This document shows, piece after piece, positions 20,401 through 27,009 of a DNA stretch of 27,009 nucleotides (position 1 is the stretch's first letter; every line of letters begins with the position of its first letter). Under the pieces are notes generated by a model that was given only the letters and a program-made list of their open reading frames with translations, did no database searches and had not been told where the DNA came from. Made by a program: the position numbers and the translations under genes. The DNA is taken from UHGV virus genome UHGV-1355560. The stretch is one strand, 5' to 3'. This stretch comes from a virus.

Positions 20401-20482
20401 TAATGTTATAGATAATGATGTTAACAGTAATGCTGCTATCAATGGTTTGACGATAGAGTTTGCTGTTGGCGGGCGGAGATAA
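17465..20482 (+). CDS. Large virion structural protein (1005 aa) containing tandem Ig-like (Big_2-type) domains; possible tail tubular, nozzle or tailspike protein
   Basis: Residues ~110-370 contain three or more repeats of the Big_2-like pattern (VTISTANESVVAQIAVNII, VTITADNGTKTASCEIV, TEITATTEEGNRVAVCTVRV). Strong SD. Confidence 0.65.
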   Translation: MALYPIKSLGAVGVIADQAPTDLAPNAFTNAINARFVEQRVFKTGGNAPLSYVDEDKDLTPLSFVSMPFDYYSAGNSFLVVGTNKKLYKLTDESLTDISRKVATVTKKASASIKIYPVVSQIVPKESTISMNFNQTKNLEVSLLPADANNTDLIWEVSNSSYGSITVDPSDSKLATLTSFEKEGNLVVTISTANESVVAQIAVNIIDGDSGIFLSQDTVTIRKGGTTTLTAVTGKTPVTWSSNNASIVSVTPNANSLTAVITANGEGNVTITADNGTKTASCEIVSIPQIDSISLSQSDVTVSRGSQYILTATLSPANAPNQNITWTSSNPNIATVSGTSTQGTINALLAGFTEITATTEEGNRVAVCTVRVDLAGRTMRTSAMAFAAPVSESVETQEEEVVTPPESEETVYFAEPTSGIDTSGMYEGNNFYDYSNVNDIEGFARASLLATPLSSVTLDIVSASLDVGEEIVITATASPEGEYSYQWSVDKTGYVSTTSVTGKSIKLVALRKGEINVTCTVSQMTQKDYDAFDDYPWYHAVISNCAVATTHYETPQVKEFESEYFVDLPGWGEQTVVDNDGNPSVKKFNWKCERVRSFNNRLFALNMREANASGVTTNYPLRLRWSNFANENKAPTLWDDFAYDRVVSSDLASNIVGQTQALENGYAGYIDLADSNGSLIDILPLKDYLFVYTEFETYIGSPTNNTYQPLMFKKLFNDSGILAPECVVEVEGSHFVVTQNDVILHNGATKKSIASNRVKNMLINEVCLVNPLATRVHLHQDKKEVWVLYVGPGEPKESFACTKAAVWNYEFDTWSFRTIPYAQCIGLVDPPVLERGPIWSDFQEITWDDPSIKELVWRKDATNFRQRVTIVGSFLRGFYQVDVGALDYFYDRLNDVVIEKPLEMRLERTGIDFDNVTNEWNQKHINRFRPQTTGSGTYIFEAGGSQFSNEYGHPHTSKTYTIGVDRHVSVRLNHPYLFYNVIDNDVNSNAAINGLTIEFAVGGRR

Positions 20483-20486
20483 CAAC

Positions 20487-20515
20487 AAGGGGCTTCGTGC
20501 CCCTTTTATTGTTTT
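20487..20515 (+). terminator. Rho-independent terminator (AAGGGGC-TTCGT-GCCCCTT followed by a T-rich tract)
   Basis: 7-bp stem and T-rich tail (TTATTGTTTT), immediately followed by GGAGG and an ATG at 20526. Confidence 0.65.
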
Positions 20516-20525
20516 GGAGGAACTT

Positions 20526-21494
20526 ATGGGTGCAGGTGGTTTTCGTAAGAATACTGGTCGCAACAATACCACACTCCCGTACAACGTTGGGTTTCTCAAT
20601 AATGTACAGGACACAGAAACATATAACGTAGCCGTATATGATGAGCTACAAAAAGTCAGTACAGCTACTAACCAAATGTTCCAAGCTATAGATGAAATTC
20701 ACGAAGAGATTGATGTTCGTATTAAAGCTCTTAATGCAATGAATCTACAATTTGATGAGCTTGAGAATAGAATTACTACAGAGATAGAAACAGCTATTGC
20801 AGATATCCAAACCCAGATGGGGAACCTGTCCACTGAGGATATTTGGGATAATTCTGTTCAACCTCCTGTGAAGCTGGAAAGCACTGTATCTGGTTTTAAG
20901 ACTAGCATCGAAGGTAACACAACTAAGATTCAGACAGTAGAAGGTATTGTTAACGATCAAGGTCAAGAGATTGCTCTTGTTCAGACAGAACTGCAAAATA
21001 TCAACGGAAGCCTTTCTCAGTATATGAAACTCTCTGAGTATGAAGCTACGTGGGGTGTTAACTCTACAGTCAACGGAAGATATGCTGGGGTCAAGTTAAC
21101 TAACAACGGAACAAACAGTCAATTCCAAGTAACAGCTAACAAATTTATTGTTGGTGATGGCAGCTCTGGGAATACTCCCTTCGTATTTGAGGGTGGGCGA
21201 GCTAGGATGGAATTCGCTGATATAAAGAATGTCAATATCACAACAGCTCAGATTGCTAACGCTAGAATCCAATGGGCACAGATTGATAACGTATCCATCT
21301 CCAACGCCCAGATTCAGAACTTGTCAGCGGATAAGATTACTGCTGGTTCTATGTGGGGTTCTAACTGGAGACTTACTGTTGGTGGTGACTTTGTTATGGG
21401 TGGTACAGGTGGAGCGCAGTTGTGGATGAATGGTAACAGAATAGACTTCTATGATGGAAGTGGTGCTCTTAGAATCAGGATAGGGAGTTGGTAA
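20526..21494 (+). CDS. Structural protein (~322 aa): N-terminal coiled-coil followed by a C-terminal short-repeat beta-type region; putative tail fibre or host-specificity component
   Basis: The ORF-track start at 20460 overlaps the previous gene and the terminator. The ATG at 20526 is in the same frame with a GGAGG SD 5 nt upstream, so it is the more likely start. C-terminal repeats such as AQIANARIQWAQIDNVSISNAQIQNLSADKI. Confidence 0.6.
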   Translation: MGAGGFRKNTGRNNTTLPYNVGFLNNVQDTETYNVAVYDELQKVSTATNQMFQAIDEIHEEIDVRIKALNAMNLQFDELENRITTEIETAIADIQTQMGNLSTEDIWDNSVQPPVKLESTVSGFKTSIEGNTTKIQTVEGIVNDQGQEIALVQTELQNINGSLSQYMKLSEYEATWGVNSTVNGRYAGVKLTNNGTNSQFQVTANKFIVGDGSSGNTPFVFEGGRARMEFADIKNVNITTAQIANARIQWAQIDNVSISNAQIQNLSADKITAGSMWGSNWRLTVGGDFVMGGTGGAQLWMNGNRIDFYDGSGALRIRIGSW

Positions 21495-21495
21495 T

Positions 21496-22527
21496 ATGGC
21501 ATATGGAATATGGACACAACCAGTAGGGCCGGGGCCAGCAACCCCCGCTCCCTTATTTATTGATAGCGGAAGTACTTTCCCTCAGTTCAAGAATAGTATA
21601 AGAGGGAGTTTTAACTTTAATGGAGCTGGGAGATCTTTCCCTATTAGTGGATGGGATGGCAGTGGTCAGATAGTTATTGTTCCCACCGGTTCTTTATGCT
21701 GGCAATGGGAAGTCCCTCCTAACCTAGTTCCTGATGTTTATTGTGTGAATAATATCTACGTAGAAAACAGTTCCTCTTTTAGAGTTACTCTGAATCAGAA
21801 CCCCGGCAGTAACCCCTTATTTGACTGTGGGTTCAACGTATATCAAATATGGCCTAGAGCGGATAGGAATTACGGAATTACCTTTTCTAATACAGCAGAC
21901 TACTTCTCGATATCTGATAGTGGGGTCGTCGGTCAATGTATTTGGGCTTGGCAGGGGACCATAAACAATGCCCTTCAGATACCAAATATCGGTGGGTTCA
22001 ATATGACCAATGCTGTTGTGTTTGCTAATTGGTCTGATGGAGGGATAGGACTATCTTATACTTCTGATGACAGGGTTATTCGTGTTTATCAGAACAGACC
22101 TTACATAAACGGCAACACTAATGAGGGTGGTTCTGTGTTTGCTAGAATTGCAGTATTCTGCAATGGAGCAGGAGTTCCGGAACATAACGGAGGTTTGAAT
22201 ATTTACTCTCCGGGTACCACGCAATGTGTCTTCTCTACTAATAGAACACCTTTCACTGTGGATACTTTTATAGGCTCAGGAGGTGGTAACACTGGAATGT
22301 CATACCCTATGATACCTCTTACCTCTGGAATAGGTGCGATAAAAGGCCAAGGCAGTGGATGGAGGTATCAGCAAATGAGATCTCACACAATGAGTGGTTC
22401 TAGCATAGGAACTGGTTATGGAAGATATCTATTTCAATGGGATCAAAATTACGACCTAGGAGCTGATACTGTAGTTAATTTATCAGTTCCTGTAATAAAT
22501 GCAGCTAAGGTTTTTGCTGGACTATAA
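21496..22527 (+). CDS. Hypothetical virion protein (343 aa), Gly/Asn/Trp-rich, probably beta-rich
   Basis: Tightly coupled to the preceding gene (TAATATG) with an SD present. No recognisable motif. Confidence 0.5.
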   Translation: MAYGIWTQPVGPGPATPAPLFIDSGSTFPQFKNSIRGSFNFNGAGRSFPISGWDGSGQIVIVPTGSLCWQWEVPPNLVPDVYCVNNIYVENSSSFRVTLNQNPGSNPLFDCGFNVYQIWPRADRNYGITFSNTADYFSISDSGVVGQCIWAWQGTINNALQIPNIGGFNMTNAVVFANWSDGGIGLSYTSDDRVIRVYQNRPYINGNTNEGGSVFARIAVFCNGAGVPEHNGGLNIYSPGTTQCVFSTNRTPFTVDTFIGSGGGNTGMSYPMIPLTSGIGAIKGQGSGWRYQQMRSHTMSGSSIGTGYGRYLFQWDQNYDLGADTVVNLSVPVINAAKVFAGL

Positions 22528-22539
22528 CAAGGAGATATT

Positions 22540-23322
22540 ATGGCAATTAAAATGGGTATTGAAGAACTAGACCCAATGGTTCAACAGGCTTCAAAGAAGT
22601 ATGGGATTCCTGCTGCTTTGATTCATGCTGTAATCCAAAGAGAGTCTAGTGGTCGTCCTACGGTAGCCTCTGGAACTGGTCCTGTAGGTTTAATGCAGAT
22701 CAGTAAAGGGTTGGCTAAAGACTACGGTTACAAACTAGAAGACAGACTTGACCCAGCAAAGAATATTGATATGGGTGCTCGTTATATTAGAGATAACTTA
22801 AAGGCTTTTAATGGTGATGTTAAGAAAGCAATGGTTGGTTATTCAGAAGGTATAGGTGGAGCTAAGCAAATGTTTGCCGGTAAAAAGGGATTTACACCTC
22901 AAGCCCTTGACTCAATGAACAACAAACACTTTCTTCCTTTCTATGATGATGCAGCTTCTCAGATTGCTAACCCTATTGGAGCTTTGCAAGCTGTTCAACC
23001 AGTCAATCAGTTTAGTCCGGATACTCTTGATAGGGAGAAGGCTGCTCAAGCCCCAACTCAGGCAGAAATTACTGCTTCTAAGACTGGTGCTTTAGGTGGC
23101 AATCCAGTAGAGTTTTACTCTGATGAAGTGCAGGAAGGAGAAAACCAGAAGCCTCAACAGAACTTTGGTAATGCAGTATTAGGGGTAGCTGCTATGCTTG
23201 CCGGTAAACCTCCTACTTCTCAAACAGTTCAGAGGGCAAGTGCACCACATGCAGCAGGTTCTCAGTACAGTCCACAAACACAAGCAGTGCTCAGACGTTT
23301 AGCTAGCATTGGTGTAAAGTAA
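22540..23322 (+). CDS. Lytic transglycosylase (SLT domain) protein, probable internal virion or ejection-associated muralytic enzyme
   Basis: Motif AVIQRESSGRPTVASGTGPVGLMQI matches the family-1 lytic transglycosylase signature (catalytic Glu-Ser ... GLMQ). Confidence 0.8.
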   Translation: MAIKMGIEELDPMVQQASKKYGIPAALIHAVIQRESSGRPTVASGTGPVGLMQISKGLAKDYGYKLEDRLDPAKNIDMGARYIRDNLKAFNGDVKKAMVGYSEGIGGAKQMFAGKKGFTPQALDSMNNKHFLPFYDDAASQIANPIGALQAVQPVNQFSPDTLDREKAAQAPTQAEITASKTGALGGNPVEFYSDEVQEGENQKPQQNFGNAVLGVAAMLAGKPPTSQTVQRASAPHAAGSQYSPQTQAVLRRLASIGVK

Positions 23323-23341
23323 TAATCTTTAAGGAGGACTT

Positions 23342-24394
23342 ATGTCTTTATTTGGAAAATCAGCTTCTAGCAAAACCACAGTGGCCCCTTCCTCTCAGGT
23401 TGATGCCCTGCTGAAGCAGATTGTTGCTAATGCTCAGAATATGCAGAACAACGATCCGGGATTCATCTCCCAACAGCTGGCTGGGTTTAATGGCAACCAA
23501 CAAGGTGCTCTGAACAACTTAGCAGCTTCTACTACTCAGAAGCAATTGGCTGATATGTACACGCCTCGTACACAGCAAGGGTTGGACCAATTAAACTCTC
23601 TTGCACAGCAGTATCAGAATATTGTCAATGGTGGTGGTCTAACTGCTGATGGTGTTAATAACTTCAGTAAAGGATTGAATAACTCAGCTCTTGCTCAAGC
23701 GACTAGTAAGGCAGCTTCCAATGTATCCCTCGGAAATGGTTCTGACTCTGGTTCTCTTCGTAGGGCTGCGGCTCAAGGGGCTGCTTTGAACAGTGCTAAT
23801 ACAAACTTAGCCCGTACTATCAGTGGCAAGAATATGGGAATCAGTGCTCTCCAACAAGACCAAAACTTTCAGAGGGGTTTACTTGGTGCTCAGTCAGGAT
23901 TGGCTGGACAGAATCTCAACCTTGGTGCTCAAGGTGTTCAGGCAACTCAACAAGCTATCCAGAATCAACTCATGGCTGGTAATCTACAACAGCAACAAGC
24001 CCAAGCTCAAGCTGATATTAATTGGCAGAACGCTATTGGCTCTCAACAGTATGGGTGGAATCAGCTTAACAATCAGCTTAATGTATTAAACAGTGTAAGT
24101 CCAATGGCTGGGTACACGATTAAGAATGCTGCTCCGGGAGTCAATACTGGACAACAGCTCCTAGGTGCTGGTATCACTGGTTTAGGTATTGCAGGTCGTA
24201 TGGGTGCTTTCTCTCCTAACCAACAGACTCAGAATGCTTGGAGTTCCTATAACAACTCAGGTGGGCAATCTGGAATGGCTGGACCTATGATTGGAGGTTC
24301 TAATCTTTCTCAACAGAGAGGTCAGTCTAACTGGTTATCCACAGCAGGTAGTAATATCTTAGGTGGTGTCTTAGGGGCATTTGGAGTAAACTAA
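23342..24394 (+). CDS. Q/N/G/A-rich low-complexity protein (350 aa) with a glycine-zipper-like C-terminus; putative internal virion or ejection protein
   Basis: Strong SD. N-terminus MSLFGK...; the end SNILGGVLGAFGVN carries GxxxG-type spacing. Paralog of the next gene. Confidence 0.55.
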   Translation: MSLFGKSASSKTTVAPSSQVDALLKQIVANAQNMQNNDPGFISQQLAGFNGNQQGALNNLAASTTQKQLADMYTPRTQQGLDQLNSLAQQYQNIVNGGGLTADGVNNFSKGLNNSALAQATSKAASNVSLGNGSDSGSLRRAAAQGAALNSANTNLARTISGKNMGISALQQDQNFQRGLLGAQSGLAGQNLNLGAQGVQATQQAIQNQLMAGNLQQQQAQAQADINWQNAIGSQQYGWNQLNNQLNVLNSVSPMAGYTIKNAAPGVNTGQQLLGAGITGLGIAGRMGAFSPNQQTQNAWSSYNNSGGQSGMAGPMIGGSNLSQQRGQSNWLSTAGSNILGGVLGAFGVN

Positions 24395-24406
24395 AGGAGA
24401 TTTGAT

Positions 24407-25375
24407 ATGGGACTTTTCGGAGGAGGGGGTAGTAAAACTACTTCCCAAATGATTCGCCCTGAATATATTCAACAGTATATTGACCAGCTTAACCAGCAGA
24501 TTGGTAATACTAGTTCAGGGGATTATGTCTATCGTGACAACGTAGGATTTAATAACAACCAGACAGAAGCCCTTAATAATTTGGCTCAATCCGGTGCTTT
24601 AGGGACTCTCTCGCAGCAATATATGGATGCAGCAGGTCAAGGGTTGGGTTATCTGGATAATGCCTATAAAGGCTACCAGAGCCTCTCTGGACAAGGTGGG
24701 ATTACTGGAGAACAGATTGGTGCTCTCGCTGGTCAACTGTATGACGATGATGCTGTGCAAGCAGCCATTACCGCTAATAATGAACAGGTTCAACAGAACT
24801 TGGCACGTAATGCTCTTCCTCAATTAGCTCAACAGTTTGCTGGTCAGCAAGGTTCAGGTGCTCGTATGGCTAAATCTTTTGCCCAAGGTGATGCTCTGAA
24901 TCAGATGCAAGGCCAAGCAACAGATATTACCAACAGTGCCTATAACTCGGCTATTAGCCAAGCTGAAAGCATCCTCTCTGGTAATAGACAGAATCAAGCA
25001 GCTGCTCTCTCAGGTCTTTCTAATATTGGTTCTAACCTTTCTAACCTAGGTCAGCAGGGTGCTAATTTGTCTCAACAGCAAATAATGAATCAATGGAATG
25101 CAGGATTGCAGCAACAACAGCAACAACAGAATGAATATGATAATGCCTACCAGAATGCTCAGAACGCAGCTAATTGGGGATGGCAAGATATCAATAACCA
25201 ACTCGGTGCAGCAGGTGTACTTAACGGTGCTCTCGGACAAACTACAACTACTAAAACATCTGGAGGTAGGGGTGGCTTCTTAGGAGGGGGTATGAGTGGT
25301 GCAGCAGCAGGCTCTTCCTTTGGACCTTGGGGTGCATTAGCTGGGGGTGTAATCGGTGGGTTGGCTAGTACTTAA
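24407..25375 (+). CDS. Q/N/G/A-rich low-complexity protein (322 aa), paralog of the preceding gene, with a glycine-zipper-like C-terminus
   Basis: N-terminus MGLFGGGGSKTT... parallels MSLFGKSASSKTT..., and both share ...GFN(G/N)NQ...ALNNLA.... C-terminus GPWGALAGGVIGGLAST. Confidence 0.55.
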   Translation: MGLFGGGGSKTTSQMIRPEYIQQYIDQLNQQIGNTSSGDYVYRDNVGFNNNQTEALNNLAQSGALGTLSQQYMDAAGQGLGYLDNAYKGYQSLSGQGGITGEQIGALAGQLYDDDAVQAAITANNEQVQQNLARNALPQLAQQFAGQQGSGARMAKSFAQGDALNQMQGQATDITNSAYNSAISQAESILSGNRQNQAAALSGLSNIGSNLSNLGQQGANLSQQQIMNQWNAGLQQQQQQQNEYDNAYQNAQNAANWGWQDINNQLGAAGVLNGALGQTTTTKTSGGRGGFLGGGMSGAAAGSSFGPWGALAGGVIGGLAST

Positions 25376-25388
25376 TTAGGAGACAAAT

Positions 25389-27009
25389 ATGCAACAGACA
25401 ACTTACGCTCAGGTCAGAAGTCGTGACCCGAGAAATACTTTCTATGGTGTTAATCCGGGAGCGGCTTCGGCCTCTCCTTATATGGCTAGACCAACTCAGA
25501 CAGCAGATATTTCTATGTATCAACGTCCTGCTATACCTGCTGGGCTTTCCTCTCTTGTAGGTCAAACTTCAGTAGATTATCAGAATATGTTGAATCCTGT
25601 TCAGAGTAATGGTCTTCCTTCTGATATCCCAAATGATGTACAACCTCAAGCACAACAGGCTGTAACTCTTCCTGAGTTTGAGAATCAAGAAACCATGCAA
25701 GCTGCTGGACTTTCTCCTTCTTCTATTCCTCCAGAATCAGAACCTCTTCCGGTAACACCTCCTACTAAACCGTTAGAAGCTGGTCCTATGGAGTTTACTC
25801 CTTCTCAGGTGGAACAGGCACAAGGTGTGATTAATACTCTTGCTCAAGGACAAGACGCTGGTGATGGAATGACTGCTGCTACTCGTGCTAAAGATCAGGA
25901 ACGTGTTAACAACGATATCTTGCAAGTTGCTAAAGCTAAAAATCCTTCAGAAGCTTGGAATAAACTACAGAAAGAACCTTTCTATCAGAACTCCAGTTTC
26001 TATACAGGTTTAATGGGTGTAGGTCTTTCTATCATGTCAGGTAAGTCTCCTATTGAAGCTTTCCAGATTGGTCAGGGAATGGCTAATCAAGATGAGACTA
26101 AGAAGCAACTGGAAGCTAACCGTGATGCTCTGATTGAACAAGGCTTCTCCCAAGACTCGATCGCAGCTGCTATTGCTAACGGAGACCCGTCTCTACTGAA
26201 GATGAGAGCTGTAGACCCTGCTCAGAAAGAAGCGCTGTATGCTTGCTCGTCGAAGAACGACAAAATGCTGAATGGGATAGACGTCAACAGATTCAAGAGC
26301 AAACTATGCGTGAGCGTGCTGATGAAACTCGTCGTGCCGCTGAAGAAAGAGCTAACATGAACTTTGAACGCCAGAAAGAGTTGATTGGTTATCGTGATAA
26401 GGTTAAGGCTGAACGTGCTGAACAAGCTGCTCAGAGTTTTAACTTTAACCCGAAAGAAGTTCGTCTTGCTCAGAATACAGCTGAAGGTACGGTTGCTAAG
26501 CAGTGGGCAGAGAAAGGTGGCCTGTTTAACCAGTCTAATAAAGACTTGGATTTGGCTGATAAGGCTGTTAAGGATAAAGACTATCAGACAGCTCGTTCTG
26601 CTTACATGCAGGCTATCATGAACTCCGCAAGGGCTGAAATCGGTGCTACTCGTTCTCTTACCGAAGAAGACTTGGGGCACTTTGCAGAAGACCCATCAAT
26701 CTTCGTTCGTGTTGGCAACAAGTTTGCACTGAAGTCTGGATGGCGTCCTACTGATTCTGCTCTTGCTTATGCTCGTAAGCAAGCTAACGTTGGTCATACC
26801 TCTGCAATGAAAGGTGTTGCTGATGCTAAGAGAGCTACGATTGAAGCTTACATCGGTTCTGGTATGGACAAGAAGAGGGCTACTGCATTGGTTAACCGTG
26901 CAATCCCTTCTGGTGGTTTCTATGACCCTCTAGGTGTTTTCTCTGAACAAGCAGAAGAAGCGGTTGGTGGTGCAGCAACCAATCCTAAGCTTAATGGTGC
27001 TCTATCAGC
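25389..27009 (+). CDS. Large internal-virion or ejection-like protein, 5' partial (runs off the window end), with an apparent -1 frame break near 26243
   Basis: Strong SD. Frame 3 reads well to about ...DPAQKEALYA (26243) and then becomes implausible and stops at 26360. The -1 frame is open from 26180 to the window end, giving coiled-coil-like EERQNAEWDRRQQIQEQ... Confidence 0.6.

What the first reader, a model, noticed from the sequence alone, without database searches (positions are those of the whole stretch)
23342..25375. Tandem paralogous Q/N-rich proteins with glycine-zipper C-termini between the transglycosylase and the large internal protein
Two adjacent genes encode ~320-350-aa proteins of very low complexity (Q, N, G, A, S-rich) with matching N-termini (MSLFGK.. 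and MGLFGG..) and C-termini carrying GxxxG-type small-residue spacing (GGVLGAFG; GALAGGVIGGLA) that could insert into membranes. Their position next to a lytic transglycosylase and a large internal protein suggests ejected proteins that help form the DNA-translocation channel. Q/N-rich prion-like composition is unusual for virion proteins.
Basis: inference. Interest (0 to 1): 0.5.

Follow-up and report, generated by a model that had tools for sequence, protein, structure and literature searches.

The report
Paired phage DNA-ejection proteins, glycine-zipper tails
These two neighbouring genes of a phiEco32-like E. coli phage encode proteins that a near-identical phage carries in its head and loses when it releases its DNA; that role is already published, though how they work at the bacterial membrane is still unknown.

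Summary
ORFs 23342-24394 (A, 350 aa) and 24407-25375 (B, 322 aa) are real, adjacent, paralogous (BLASTP 2e-12, z=14 against shuffles) and under purifying selection. They are rich in Q/N/G/A/S and poor in charged residues. The window is a Kuravirus. A and B are 97% and 99% identical to SU10 gp21 and gp22. Those proteins were found in virions by mass spectrometry and are absent from genome-release intermediates (Siborova 2022), and RefSeq already calls them "DNA ejection protein".

"Prion-like" is not supported: the first ~250-275 residues are predicted helical and conserved position by position.

B's tail is a conserved double GxxxG glycine zipper. A's quoted terminal motif is weakly conserved; its conserved Gly-rich motif is internal (aa 271-291).

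New here:
- The family extends to Bruynoghevirus gp53/Pa223 gp56, a proposed outer-membrane channel (hhalign 98.5%).
- Relatives in 7-11-like phages carry a self-cleaving Peptidase_S74 domain exactly where B ends.
- Other relatives are fused to peptidoglycan hydrolases.
- A-type and B-type proteins keep opposite net charge.

Most likely they are membrane-inserting parts of the DNA conduit, possibly acting as a heteromer.

The parts
22540..23322 (+). SLT lytic transglycosylase, the orthologue of SU10 gp20 and first gene of the ejection-protein cassette
   Evidence: PF01464 SLT at 1.2e-23. phrog_12507 at 8e-176. 97.7% aa identity to SU10 gp20. SU10 gp20 is reported as an ejection protein.
23342..24394 (+). 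Protein A (350 aa, net charge +7, no Glu), the orthologue of SU10 gp21 and phiEco32 gp23; A-type paralogue of the PHROG 4287 ejection-protein family
   Evidence: ORF. phrog_4287 at 1.8e-117. 96.9% identical to SU10 and 99.1% to phiEco32. Found in SU10 virions by MS. Codon changes against NJ01: 70 synonymous, 11 non-synonymous.
23393..24094 (+). A, predicted alpha-helical domain (aa 18-251), which contains the Q/N-rich region
   Evidence: AF2 secondary structure gives helices 18-36, 51-61, 64-96, 102-121, 137-161 and 192-251, but with low confidence (mean pLDDT 54). Invariant or near-invariant W228, N230, W239, N244 and L246 among orthologues.
24152..24214 (+). A, conserved internal Gly-rich hydrophobic motif QLLGAGITGLGIAGRMGAFS (aa 271-291)
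   Evidence: Invariant or near-invariant Q272, G275, G277, L281, G282, G285, G288 and F290. The same GLGxxGLG-type motif sits at about residues 260-300 in distant and long relatives.
24356..24388 (+).
   Evidence: Highest 11-residue hydropathy window in A. Kept as LGAFG only in relatives of about 55% identity or more; it changes to ..LNGLSSLFS in more distant ones.
24407..25375 (+). Protein B (322 aa, net charge -8), the orthologue of SU10 gp22 and phiEco32 gp24; B-type paralogue of the same family
   Evidence: ORF. phrog_4287 at 2.9e-109. 99.4% identical to SU10 gp22, with 43 synonymous and 2 non-synonymous codon changes. Found in SU10 virions by MS.
24461..25231 (+). B, predicted alpha-helical domain (aa 19-275)
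   Evidence: AF2 secondary structure gives helices 19-34, 50-60, 65-94, 101-111, 114-144, 151-190 and 194-275. The tertiary model is unreliable (pLDDT 39).
25262..25357 (+). B, double glycine zipper: G286-x3-G290-x3-G294-x3-G298-x3-G302-x3-G306, then P307-W308, then G309-x3-G313-x3-G317. This is the best-conserved block of the protein
   Evidence: GxxxG list. Invariant or near-invariant glycines across 39 orthologues of 37-97% identity, and in the tail-only alignment that includes S74-type homologues. B ends within a few residues of where homologues carry the S74 'SD' start.
25389..27009 (+). Orthologue of SU10 gp23 (551 aa; ejection protein). Here it is interrupted by two 1-nt insertions at about 26243 and 26251, and it runs off the window end
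   Evidence: phrog_12130 matched only over profile positions 1-291 of 551. DNA alignment with SU10 and phiEco32. SU10 ORF23 found in virions by MS.

Best explanation
A and B are two anciently diverged paralogues of one family of podophage ejection ('pilot') proteins. They are packaged in the Kuravirus head. At infection they are expelled through the nozzle together with the SLT transglycosylase (gp20 orthologue), the ~550-aa gp23 orthologue and the 1473-aa gp24 orthologue.

Proposed mechanism (inferred):
- The helical N-terminal ~250-275 residues oligomerise into the wall of the conduit that extends the nozzle.
- The conserved Gly-rich C-terminal element anchors that assembly in a host membrane, most probably the outer membrane. 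In B this element is a two-segment GxxxG hairpin. In A it is a GLGxxG-type motif.
- This is the role proposed for the homologous Bruynoghevirus protein Pa223 gp56 (LUZ24 gp53).
- Both paralogues are retained together, and A-types are net positive while B-types are net negative, so they probably work as a hetero-oligomer.

What is shown and what is inferred:
- Shown by others for 97-99% identical orthologues: presence in virions and loss on genome release.
- Shown here: paralogy, conservation of the tails, homology to Bruynoghevirus gp53, the S74-bearing and hydrolase-fused relatives, and the charge split.
- Inferred: channel formation, which membrane is targeted, insertion through the glycine zipper, and the heteromer.
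For: Ejection-protein status:
- SU10 gp20-24 are present in virions and absent from genome-release intermediates, and ORF21 and ORF22 are MS-positive.
- The numbering maps onto A and B, with 96.9% and 99.4% aa identity.
- Homologues are virion or particle-proteome proteins in Privateer, phiM5 and Pa223.

Cassette:
- The order SLT, A, B, ~500-aa protein, ~1100-1470-aa protein is conserved in distant contigs L005 and L006.
- The genes are tightly packed, with no internal promoter or terminator signal above chance.

Membrane element:
- B's glycine ladder is the most conserved block of the protein.
- A Gly-rich hydrophobic motif lies at about residues 260-300 in nearly all of 143 representatives.
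- Sub-threshold hits to Pfam glycine-zipper families fall exactly on this element in homologues.

Link to a proposed outer-membrane channel:
- B-family against LUZ24 gp53-family profiles give hhalign probability 98.5%, E=2.5e-15, over 269 columns.
- PHROG hits are reciprocal.
- Pa223 gp56 is 313 aa, the same size as LUZ24 gp53. Its authors assign it the outer-membrane channel role and predict membrane segments at 278-291 and 296-311, which is its Gly-rich tail.

Envelope-penetration context:
- In 49 long relatives, the N-terminal family domain is fused to five different kinds of peptidoglycan hydrolase in 8 proteins.

Heteromer:
- A-types have net charge +5.2 (range -1 to +11, n=52). B-types have -6.8 (range -10 to -2, n=46).
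- Both types co-occur on the same contigs.
Against: - No structure exists. AF2 monomer models are unreliable (pLDDT 54 and 39), and no solved structure matches by sequence.
- The SU10 maps contain no density assigned to these proteins.
- The hydrophobic segments are short and fall below classical TM-helix hydropathy.
- B's tail alone misses the Pfam glycine-zipper cutoffs (10.6 bits against 24.2).
- The outer-membrane role of Pa223 gp56 is itself only a bioinformatic and AF3 proposal.
- These proteins are about twice the size of T7 gp14 and P22 gp7 and share no detectable sequence similarity with them.
- S74 domains in relatives usually chaperone trimeric fibres, which fits a trimeric rod at least as well as a 6- or 9-fold channel.
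- Opposite net charge is compatible with a heteromer but does not prove one.
Confidence: 0.6

Rival explanations
1. A and B are ejected, but they form a trimeric, needle- or rod-like helical bundle rather than a multi-subunit pore. The rod would sit in the portal/nozzle lumen as a plug or first-out 'harpoon'. Its Gly-zipper tip would breach or mark a membrane before the real conduit (gp23/gp24) assembles.
For: - Single-copy homologues in Grimontviridae and in metagenomes carry a Peptidase_S74 intramolecular-chaperone domain directly after the Gly-zipper.
- From my own knowledge of endosialidase and fibre CIMCDs, this domain drives folding of trimeric fibres and then cleaves itself off.
- 12 of 49 long relatives also carry S74.
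- AF2 predicts very long single helices, 60 residues in A and 82 in B.
- The SU10 map shows unassigned density in the portal barrel, attributed to the DNA end or to ejection proteins.
Against: - A and B themselves lack S74.
- The SU10 tail needle is already assigned to gp18.
- The Pa223 authors obtained a hollow AF3 model for the homologue only with nine copies. A nonamer could still be three trimers.
- No oligomeric state has been measured for any member of the family.
Confidence: 0.2
2. A and B are ejection proteins, but they belong to the periplasmic-tunnel or inner-membrane part of the conduit. The outer-membrane step would be handled by the nozzle, needle and short fibres, or by another protein.
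For: - Kuravirus tails already extend by a 28-nm nozzle on binding, which could reduce the need for an outer-membrane pore protein.
- At 322-350 aa, the proteins are larger than known gp14-class pore proteins.
- Long relatives join the domain to hydrolases that act in the periplasm.
Against: - Gene order places the family first in the cassette, upstream of the tunnel-sized and large proteins, which is where gp14-like genes sit in other podophages.
- The Bruynoghevirus homologue lies next to the portal-bound tunnel candidate gp54.
- Glycine-zipper two-segment motifs are typical of outer-membrane-associated proteins, as the Pfam family names show. This is only a weak argument.
Confidence: 0.15
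3. The Q/N-rich sequences are prion-like or amyloid-like low-complexity regions. They would aggregate or phase-separate inside the capsid as a DNA-condensing core or scaffold and play no specific structural role after ejection.
For: - Q+N is about 26% and charge is very low.
- 19-33% of residues lie in low-entropy windows.
- AF2 cannot fold the proteins.
- No density for them was resolved in SU10 heads.
Against: - Conservation is position-specific down to about 40% identity, with invariant W, N, Y and G positions.
- Synonymous changes far outnumber non-synonymous ones.
- Consistent helix predictions cover about 75% of each protein.
- The longest Q/N run is only 8 residues.
- Full-length profile homology reaches Bruynoghevirus proteins that are not notably Q/N-rich.
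Confidence: 0.03

Closest known systems
SU10 gp21 and gp22 (phiEco32 gp23 and gp24), the Kuravirus ejection proteins
   Same: Direct orthologues: 96.9% and 99.4% aa identity to SU10, 99.1% and 98.8% to phiEco32, with the same lengths, order and neighbours. Found in virions by MS and lost in genome-release intermediates.
   Different: Essentially nothing; this is the same pair of proteins in another isolate. The published work does not describe their paralogy, their tails, or any structure or specific role.
Bruynoghevirus LUZ24 gp53 / Pa223 gp56 (phrog_7477), a putative outer-membrane channel of the ejectosome
   Same: Homologous over nearly the full length (hhalign 98.5%, E=2.5e-15). Similar size (313 aa). 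First gene of the ejection cassette. Gly-rich C-terminal tail ending at the same point as B. Virion protein by MS but invisible in cryo-EM maps.
   Different: Single copy, not a pair. Only about 28% identity. Not notably Q/N-rich. No adjacent SLT gene. The other cassette proteins show no detectable similarity. Its outer-membrane role and nonameric state are predictions, not measurements.
Salmonella phage 7-11 gp20, Proteus phage Privateer gp18 and Sinorhizobium phage phiM5 gp27: S74-bearing members of the family
   Same: 7-11 gp20 and Privateer gp18 hit phrog_4287 at 2e-136 and 2e-98. phiM5 gp27 is linked only weakly, through a tblastn match to the long relative P0145 (28% identity, E=3e-9) and 14.6 bits against the B-type HMM. 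All three have the helical domain followed by a Gly-rich tail. Privateer and phiM5 are annotated as detected in particles. 7-11 and Privateer score closer to the B-type HMM than to the A-type.
   Different: Single copy. They carry a C-terminal Peptidase_S74 intramolecular-chaperone/autoprotease domain starting at 'SD' right after the tail, which A and B lack. phiM5 gp27 is annotated as a tailspike because of this domain.
T7 gp14 / P22 gp7 / DEV gp73 class of outer-membrane pore-forming ejection proteins
   Same: Smallest members of, and first gene position in, an ejection cassette that also holds a tunnel-sized and a very large protein. Predicted helical. Proposed membrane insertion.
   Different: No detectable sequence similarity. 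About twice as long: 322-350 aa against 150-240 aa. No classical hydrophobic TM helices, whereas gp14-like proteins are reported to have 2-5. Two paralogues rather than one protein.
Pfam glycine-zipper families (PF05433 'Glycine zipper 2TM domain', PF13488 Gly-zipper_Omp, PF13441 Gly-zipper_YMGG)
   Same: B's tail has two runs of GxxxG repeats joined by a Gly-Pro turn. Homologues P0141 and P0122 give near-threshold hits exactly on this element (21.5 bits against a cutoff of 25).
   Different: A and B do not reach any curated cutoff (best 10.6 bits against 24.2). Here the element is the C-terminal tail of a 300-aa helical phage protein, not part of a small bacterial lipoprotein.

Membership tests
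PHROG 4287 ('DNA ejection protein') | Significant full-length match to the family profile | tested here: met
   A: E=1.8e-117, residues 1-349 on profile positions 1-391 of 392. B: E=2.9e-109, residues 1-310 on positions 1-321.
Podophage ejection (internal virion, pilot) proteins | Physically present in purified virions | not testable with these tools
   Published for 97-99% identical orthologues: SU10 ORF21 and ORF22 are marked 'in virion yes, MS yes'. Homologues are also annotated as detected in Privateer, phiM5 and Pa223 particles.
Podophage ejection (internal virion, pilot) proteins | Released from the capsid on genome ejection | not testable with these tools
   Published: SU10 gp20-24 are absent from in-vitro genome-release intermediates, by SDS-PAGE and MS.
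Podophage ejection (internal virion, pilot) proteins | Encoded in a late-gene cassette with a peptidoglycan hydrolase and a very large internal protein | tested here: met
   The order SLT, A, B, 551 aa, 1473 aa is seen in SU10 and phiEco32 and conserved in distant contigs.
Podophage ejection (internal virion, pilot) proteins | Required for infectivity but not for particle assembly | not tested
   I found no genetic data for any member of the family.
T7 gp14 / P22 gp7-like outer-membrane pore proteins | Sequence or profile similarity to gp14 or gp7 families, or to their solved structures | tested here: not met
   No Pfam hit. No PDB sequence hit with the family profile, including the T7, P22 and DEV entries held in the 2026 PDB copy.
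T7 gp14 / P22 gp7-like outer-membrane pore proteins | Small size (about 150-240 aa) with 2-5 predicted hydrophobic TM helices | tested here: not met
   350 and 322 aa. The best Kyte-Doolittle 19-residue windows score 1.16 and 0.94, below 1.6. No dedicated TM predictor was available.
T7 gp14 / P22 gp7-like outer-membrane pore proteins | Localises to the host outer membrane after ejection and forms a pore | not testable with these tools
   No experimental data exist for this family.
Bruynoghevirus gp53 / Pa223 gp56 family (phrog_7477) | Profile-level homology over most of the length | tested here: met
   hhalign of A3 against A7: probability 98.5%, E=2.5e-15, 269 columns. LUZ24 gp53 hits phrog_4287 at 2e-10, and 7-11 gp20 hits phrog_7477 at 2e-4. 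A and B themselves do not hit phrog_7477 at E<=0.01, so they are a sister family, not members.
Pfam glycine-zipper families (PF05433, PF13488, PF13441) | Score above the curated gathering threshold | tested here: not met
   B tail: PF05433 at 10.6 bits (cutoff 24.2) and PF13441 at 7.5 bits (cutoff 28.9). A tail: no hit.
Pfam glycine-zipper families (PF05433, PF13488, PF13441) | Repeated GxxxG spacing in a short hydrophobic segment, conserved among relatives | tested here: met
   B has G286/290/294/298/302/306 and G309/313/317, invariant or nearly so. A's conserved motif has GxGxxGxGxxGxxG spacing instead.
Peptidase_S74 (self-cleaving intramolecular chaperone) proteins | Presence of the PF13884 domain with the N-terminal Ser and a Lys five residues later | tested here: not met
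   A and B have no hit even at E<=1 to 5. Relatives do: P0145 37.9 bits, P0125 26.2, P0131 24.8, 7-11 gp20 20.5, all starting at 'SDxx[LM]K'. 12 of 49 long relatives also hit.
Prion-like Q/N-rich domains | Long disordered Q/N-dominated stretch lacking positional conservation | tested here: not met
   Q+N is about 26%, and the longest Q/N run is 8 residues. The region is predicted helical, has invariant positions, and synonymous changes far outnumber non-synonymous ones. No dedicated prion predictor was available.

The most novel reading that the evidence does not exclude
The family may be an ancient 'first-out' ejection module whose ancestral form is a self-processing precursor. In that form, a helical domain and glycine-zipper tail are followed by a Peptidase_S74 chaperone/autoprotease, and in many phages by a peptidoglycan hydrolase and further domains. 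Oligomerisation-dependent self-cleavage would then release a mature protein whose new C-terminus is the membrane-inserting glycine zipper. Kuraviruses and Bruynogheviruses would have lost the chaperone and now encode the 'already-cleaved' form, since B and LUZ24 gp53 stop within a few residues of the S74 cleavage position. Kuraviruses would compensate by co-assembling two oppositely charged paralogues into a heteromeric, outer-membrane-anchored conduit. This would be the first case I know of in which an S74 intramolecular chaperone acts in ejection-protein maturation rather than in fibre or spike maturation.
Probability: 0.25. Interest if true: 0.6.

Novelty: already known. Interest (0 to 1): 0.3.

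Why it matters
How short-tailed phages build a DNA conduit across the Gram-negative envelope is solved in part only for T7-, P22- and N4-like phages. For Kuraviruses, which are used in E. coli phage-therapy collections, five ejection proteins are known but none has a structure or an assigned role.

The finding itself adds nothing to what the SU10 work showed. The follow-up gives four concrete handles:
- a conserved double glycine zipper to mutate;
- a homology bridge to the Bruynoghevirus putative outer-membrane channel;
- S74-bearing relatives that predict a defined processing site and an oligomeric state;
- a conserved charge split that predicts an A:B heteromer.

It also shows that several database labels are inherited rather than tested. 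Examples are 'tailspike' for phiM5 gp27, 'nuclear pore complex' for SU10 ORF24, and 'DNA, RNA and nucleotide metabolism' as the category of PHROG 4287.

Tried and rejected
- **AF2 monomer models.** A (74-sequence alignment) gave pLDDT 54 and pTM 0.28. B (39 sequences) gave pLDDT 39 and pTM 0.20. Only the secondary structure is usable, so I ran no fold search; matches to such models would be meaningless.
- **Solved structures.** PDB sequence searches with the family profile, the tail-only profile and the LUZ24 gp53 family profile found nothing significant. The best hit was apolipophorin-III at E=0.56.
- **Pfam and NCBIfam on A and B.** Nothing.
- **Single LUZ24 gp53 sequence against the family profile.** hhalign was weak (probability 9%). 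The comparison became convincing only profile against profile.
- **One search is discarded as circular**, because alignment A5 contained LUZ24 gp53.
- **Rest of the cassette, Kuravirus against Bruynoghevirus.** SU10 gp23 against LUZ24 gp51, and gp24 against gp50, showed no similarity by BLASTP.
- **gp23 against the C-terminal half of the long fusion relatives.** Only a 30-35-residue motif matches (BLASTP 5e-4; hhalign probability 11% and 6.5%). Not established.
- **Savalia 2008 phiEco32 proteomics paper** is not held in the library.
- **Literature searches** for 'glycine zipper' with 'ejection protein' found nothing. 'Chaperone of endosialidase' with 'internal virion protein' found one generic paper, which I did not read. 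The library is incomplete, so absence is weak evidence.
- **Promoter and terminator scan** of 22000-27009 found nothing above shuffles.
- **Short ORFs** in other frames and on the minus strand within the region have no support and are treated as chance.
- **N-terminal 'GLFG' and the influenza HA2 fusion peptide.** The four-residue resemblance is probably coincidence. More distant family members begin MGK, MGGGG or similar.
Full report
**1. What is in the sequence**

The window is the late, structural arm of a phiEco32-like podophage (genus Kuravirus). The 3.8-kb stretch around the finding is 92-97% identical in DNA to about 70 E. coli and Shigella phages, including MN03, ES17 and NJ01. The same genes are found in SU10 and phiEco32.

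ORFs 23342-24394 (A, 350 aa) and 24407-25375 (B, 322 aa) exist exactly as described. They have AAGGAGG and AAGGAG ribosome-binding sites, and the gaps to their neighbours are only 12-19 nt. No promoter-like or terminator-like signal within 22000-27009 exceeds shuffled controls, which is consistent with one transcription unit.

Against SU10, phiEco32 and NJ01, synonymous codon changes outnumber non-synonymous ones by about 5:1 to 20:1. For example, B against SU10 has 43 synonymous and 2 non-synonymous changes. Both are therefore real genes under constraint.

**2. Checking the description**

- **Paralogy is solid.** BLASTP gives 31% identity over 275 residues at E=2e-12. The Smith-Waterman score is 279, against 94+/-13 for shuffles and 112+/-14 for shuffles that preserve local composition. 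Both proteins fall in PHROG 4287.
- **Composition is as stated.** Q+N is 25-27%, G+A+S is 36%, and charged residues are only 7-9%. The other virion proteins of the window have 8-17% Q+N.
- **'Very low complexity' and 'prion-like' go too far.** Only 19% of A and 33% of B lie in low-entropy windows. The longest Q/N run is 8 residues. AlphaFold2 predicts helices over residues ~18-251 of A and ~19-275 of B. Orthologues down to about 40% identity keep invariant W, N, Y, L and G positions.

**3. The Gly-rich elements differ between the two proteins**

In B, the last ~40 residues are the best-conserved block of the protein. The glycines form a ladder, G286-290-294-298-302-306, followed by P307-W308 and then G309-313-317. 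That makes two GxxxG zippers joined by a Gly-Pro turn.

The conserved element is internal (aa 271-291, QLLGAGITGLGIAGRMGAF) and has GxGxxGxGxxGxxG spacing.

None of these segments reaches classical TM-helix hydropathy. The Pfam glycine-zipper families are hit only below threshold, although the hits fall exactly on this element in homologues.

**4. What is already known**

SU10 is a Kuravirus whose gp20 (SLT), gp21 (350 aa), gp22 (322 aa), gp23 and gp24 (1473 aa) are collinear with the window. A is 96.9% identical to gp21 and B is 99.4% identical to gp22.

Siborova et al. 2022 (PMC9509320) report that gp20-24 are present in virions and absent from genome-release intermediates, and they conclude that these are ejection proteins. 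Their Supplementary Table 1 lists ORF21 and ORF22 as virion proteins detected by MS. No density in their maps could be assigned to these proteins. All tail parts were assigned to other proteins: gp11, 12, 13, 16, 17 and 18.

RefSeq annotates both genes as 'DNA ejection protein' in phiEco32, SU10 and NJ01. The YF01 paper repeats this reading. Its stated refutation test, absence from virions, has been run and failed.

**5. What the wider family adds**

*An old, retained pair.* A-type and B-type orthologues form separate sets and co-occur on the same contigs. The five-gene cassette (SLT, A, B, ~500 aa, ~1100-1400 aa) is kept in two distant contigs, one of which has a different surrounding gene order. 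The pair is therefore old and retained.

*Distant relatives.* An exhaustive profile search of 1.84 billion representative proteins found 396 relatives at E<=1e-3. Three points follow.

(a) *S74-bearing relatives.* Single-copy homologues of about 410 aa occur in Grimontviridae (7-11 gp20, Privateer gp18) and in metagenomes. They consist of the same helical domain and Gly-rich tail, followed directly by a Peptidase_S74 domain. That domain begins at 'SDxx[LM]K'. Three members pass Pfam's cutoff, and most of the rest align from profile position 1. B and LUZ24 gp53 end within a few residues of that 'SD'. From my own knowledge of endosialidase-type C-terminal intramolecular chaperone domains, S74 folds trimeric fibres and then cleaves at its first serine with the help of a lysine five residues later. 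That spacing is present here. This suggests the mature C-terminus of the family is the glycine zipper.

(b) *Long fusion relatives.* About half of the listed representatives (69 of 143) are longer than 700 aa, up to about 1650 aa, and carry the family domain and Gly motif at the N-terminus. Of the 49 I scanned, 12 have S74. Eight have a peptidoglycan hydrolase, of five different kinds: SLT, Hydrolase_2, phage lysozyme, M15 peptidase and GH108. These are repeated, independent fusions to the activity that the adjacent gene encodes in Kuraviruses.

(c) *Two subfamilies.* The S74 single-copy forms score higher against a B-type HMM (7-11 gp20: 111 against 66 bits). The long fusions match only the A-type HMM. 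A and B therefore represent two old subfamilies, not a recent local duplication.

**6. A bridge to a protein with a proposed role**

LUZ24 gp53 (313 aa, annotated 'phage particle protein') lies first in the Bruynoghevirus internal-protein cassette. A profile of B-type orthologues aligns with a profile of the gp53 family at hhalign probability 98.5%, E=2.5e-15, over 269 columns. PHROG hits are reciprocal. An earlier comparison was circular and is discarded.

Pa223 gp56, gp54 and gp53 have the same sizes as LUZ24 gp53, gp51 and gp50. The Pa223 preprint shows gp56 in virions by MS. It proposes gp56 as the outer-membrane channel of the ejectosome, predicts membrane segments in its Gly-rich tail (278-291 and 296-311), and reports a hollow AF3 model only for nine copies. 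That role is a prediction, not a measurement.

The remaining cassette proteins show no detectable similarity between the two phage groups.

**7. Charge**

A has net charge +7 with no glutamate. B has net charge -8. Across 52 A-type and 46 B-type cluster representatives, the means are +5.2 (range -1 to +11) and -6.8 (range -10 to -2), and the ranges do not overlap. Together with strict co-retention, this suggests a heteromer. It is an inference only.

**8. Most likely mechanism**

A and B are head-internal proteins expelled at infection (shown by others). I infer the following:
- their helical domains oligomerise to extend the nozzle;
- their conserved Gly-rich elements anchor the assembly in a membrane, most probably the outer membrane;
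- they act alongside the SLT enzyme and the two larger proteins.

I put about 0.9 on 'ejection proteins' and about 0.4-0.5 on 'outer-membrane-anchored channel part using the glycine zipper'. The composite statement gets 0.6.

The main rival is a trimeric rod or plug with a membrane-active tip (0.2), motivated by the S74 relatives. Next is a periplasmic or inner-membrane role (0.15). A prion-like aggregate is unlikely (0.03).

**9. Novelty and verdict**

However, it concerns proteins already identified experimentally as ejection proteins in near-identical phages, so I rate it 'already known' with modest interest.

The following appear not to be discussed in the literature I could search:
- the paralogy into two old subfamilies with opposite charge;
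- the conserved double glycine zipper;
- the S74-bearing and hydrolase-fused relatives;
- the homology to the Bruynoghevirus candidate outer-membrane channel.

These make the mechanism testable. They are computational leads, not demonstrations.

Noticed in passing
window 26243 and 26251 (gene 25389-27009+): The gp23 orthologue carries two single-base insertions relative to SU10 and phiEco32 ('GCTTGCTCGTCGAAG' against 'GC-TGCTCGT-GAAG'). This shifts the frame, so the ORF stops at 26360 (323 aa instead of about 551), while DNA homology continues to the window end. It is either an assembly or sequencing error, or a real disruption of an ejection-protein gene.
   Followed up: partly
window 23164-23205 (SLT protein aa 209-222): The SLT transglycosylase has its own short Gly/Ala-rich hydrophobic segment, FGNAVLGVAAMLAG, near its C-terminus. 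It has the highest 11-residue hydropathy in the protein (2.21). At least three consecutive cassette proteins therefore carry such an element.
   Followed up: no
window 26004-26090 (gp23 orthologue aa 206-234): The motif FYTGLMGVGLSIMSGKSPIEAFQIGQGM resembles a conserved motif (AGLGMMAGxSPxAGxNIGxGGL) in the C-terminal half of the long fusion relatives of A. The long proteins might thus equal A + hydrolase + gp23 in one chain. Support is weak: BLASTP 5e-4 and hhalign probability 6-11%.
   Followed up: partly
L011 7692-9098 (Sinorhizobium phage phiM5 gp27): This gene is annotated 'putative tailspike protein / chaperone of endosialidase'. It appears to be a distant member of this ejection-protein family with a Gly-rich tail and an S74 domain, and it heads the internal-virion-protein cassette. 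The tailspike label probably derives only from the S74 domain. The family link is weak: tblastn to P0145 at 28% identity, E=3e-9, and 14.6 bits against the B-type HMM.
   Followed up: partly
L001 9868-10122 and 10217-10837 (Escherichia phage EcK-vB): In this 96.8%-identical record the B orthologue is annotated as two separate 'DNA ejection protein' CDSs. Several neighbours carry implausible names ('nuclear chromosome segregation protein', 'exonuclease' for tail genes). This points to a frameshift or low-quality annotation in that record.
   Followed up: no
L006 (Logan SRR24679947 contig, 59.9 kb) and protein P0095: A B-type homologue (44% identity) is named by NCBI as an Enterobacter cloacae protein and is recorded on a contig of up to 317 kb. 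In the locus I read, the SLT-A-B cassette follows capsid, terminase and portal genes directly, a different module order from Kuravirus. This may be a prophage, a chimeric assembly or a distinct phage lineage.
   Followed up: no
window 23342-24394: Protein A contains no Glu, His or Cys in 350 residues. Seven of the 52 A-type cluster representatives also have zero Glu.
   Followed up: partly
window 20460-21494: The mechanical ORF for the tail-needle orthologue (SU10 gp18, annotated as 969 nt) starts at a TTG that overlaps the end of the 1005-aa nozzle gene. The true start is probably further downstream, as in the SU10 annotation.
   Followed up: no
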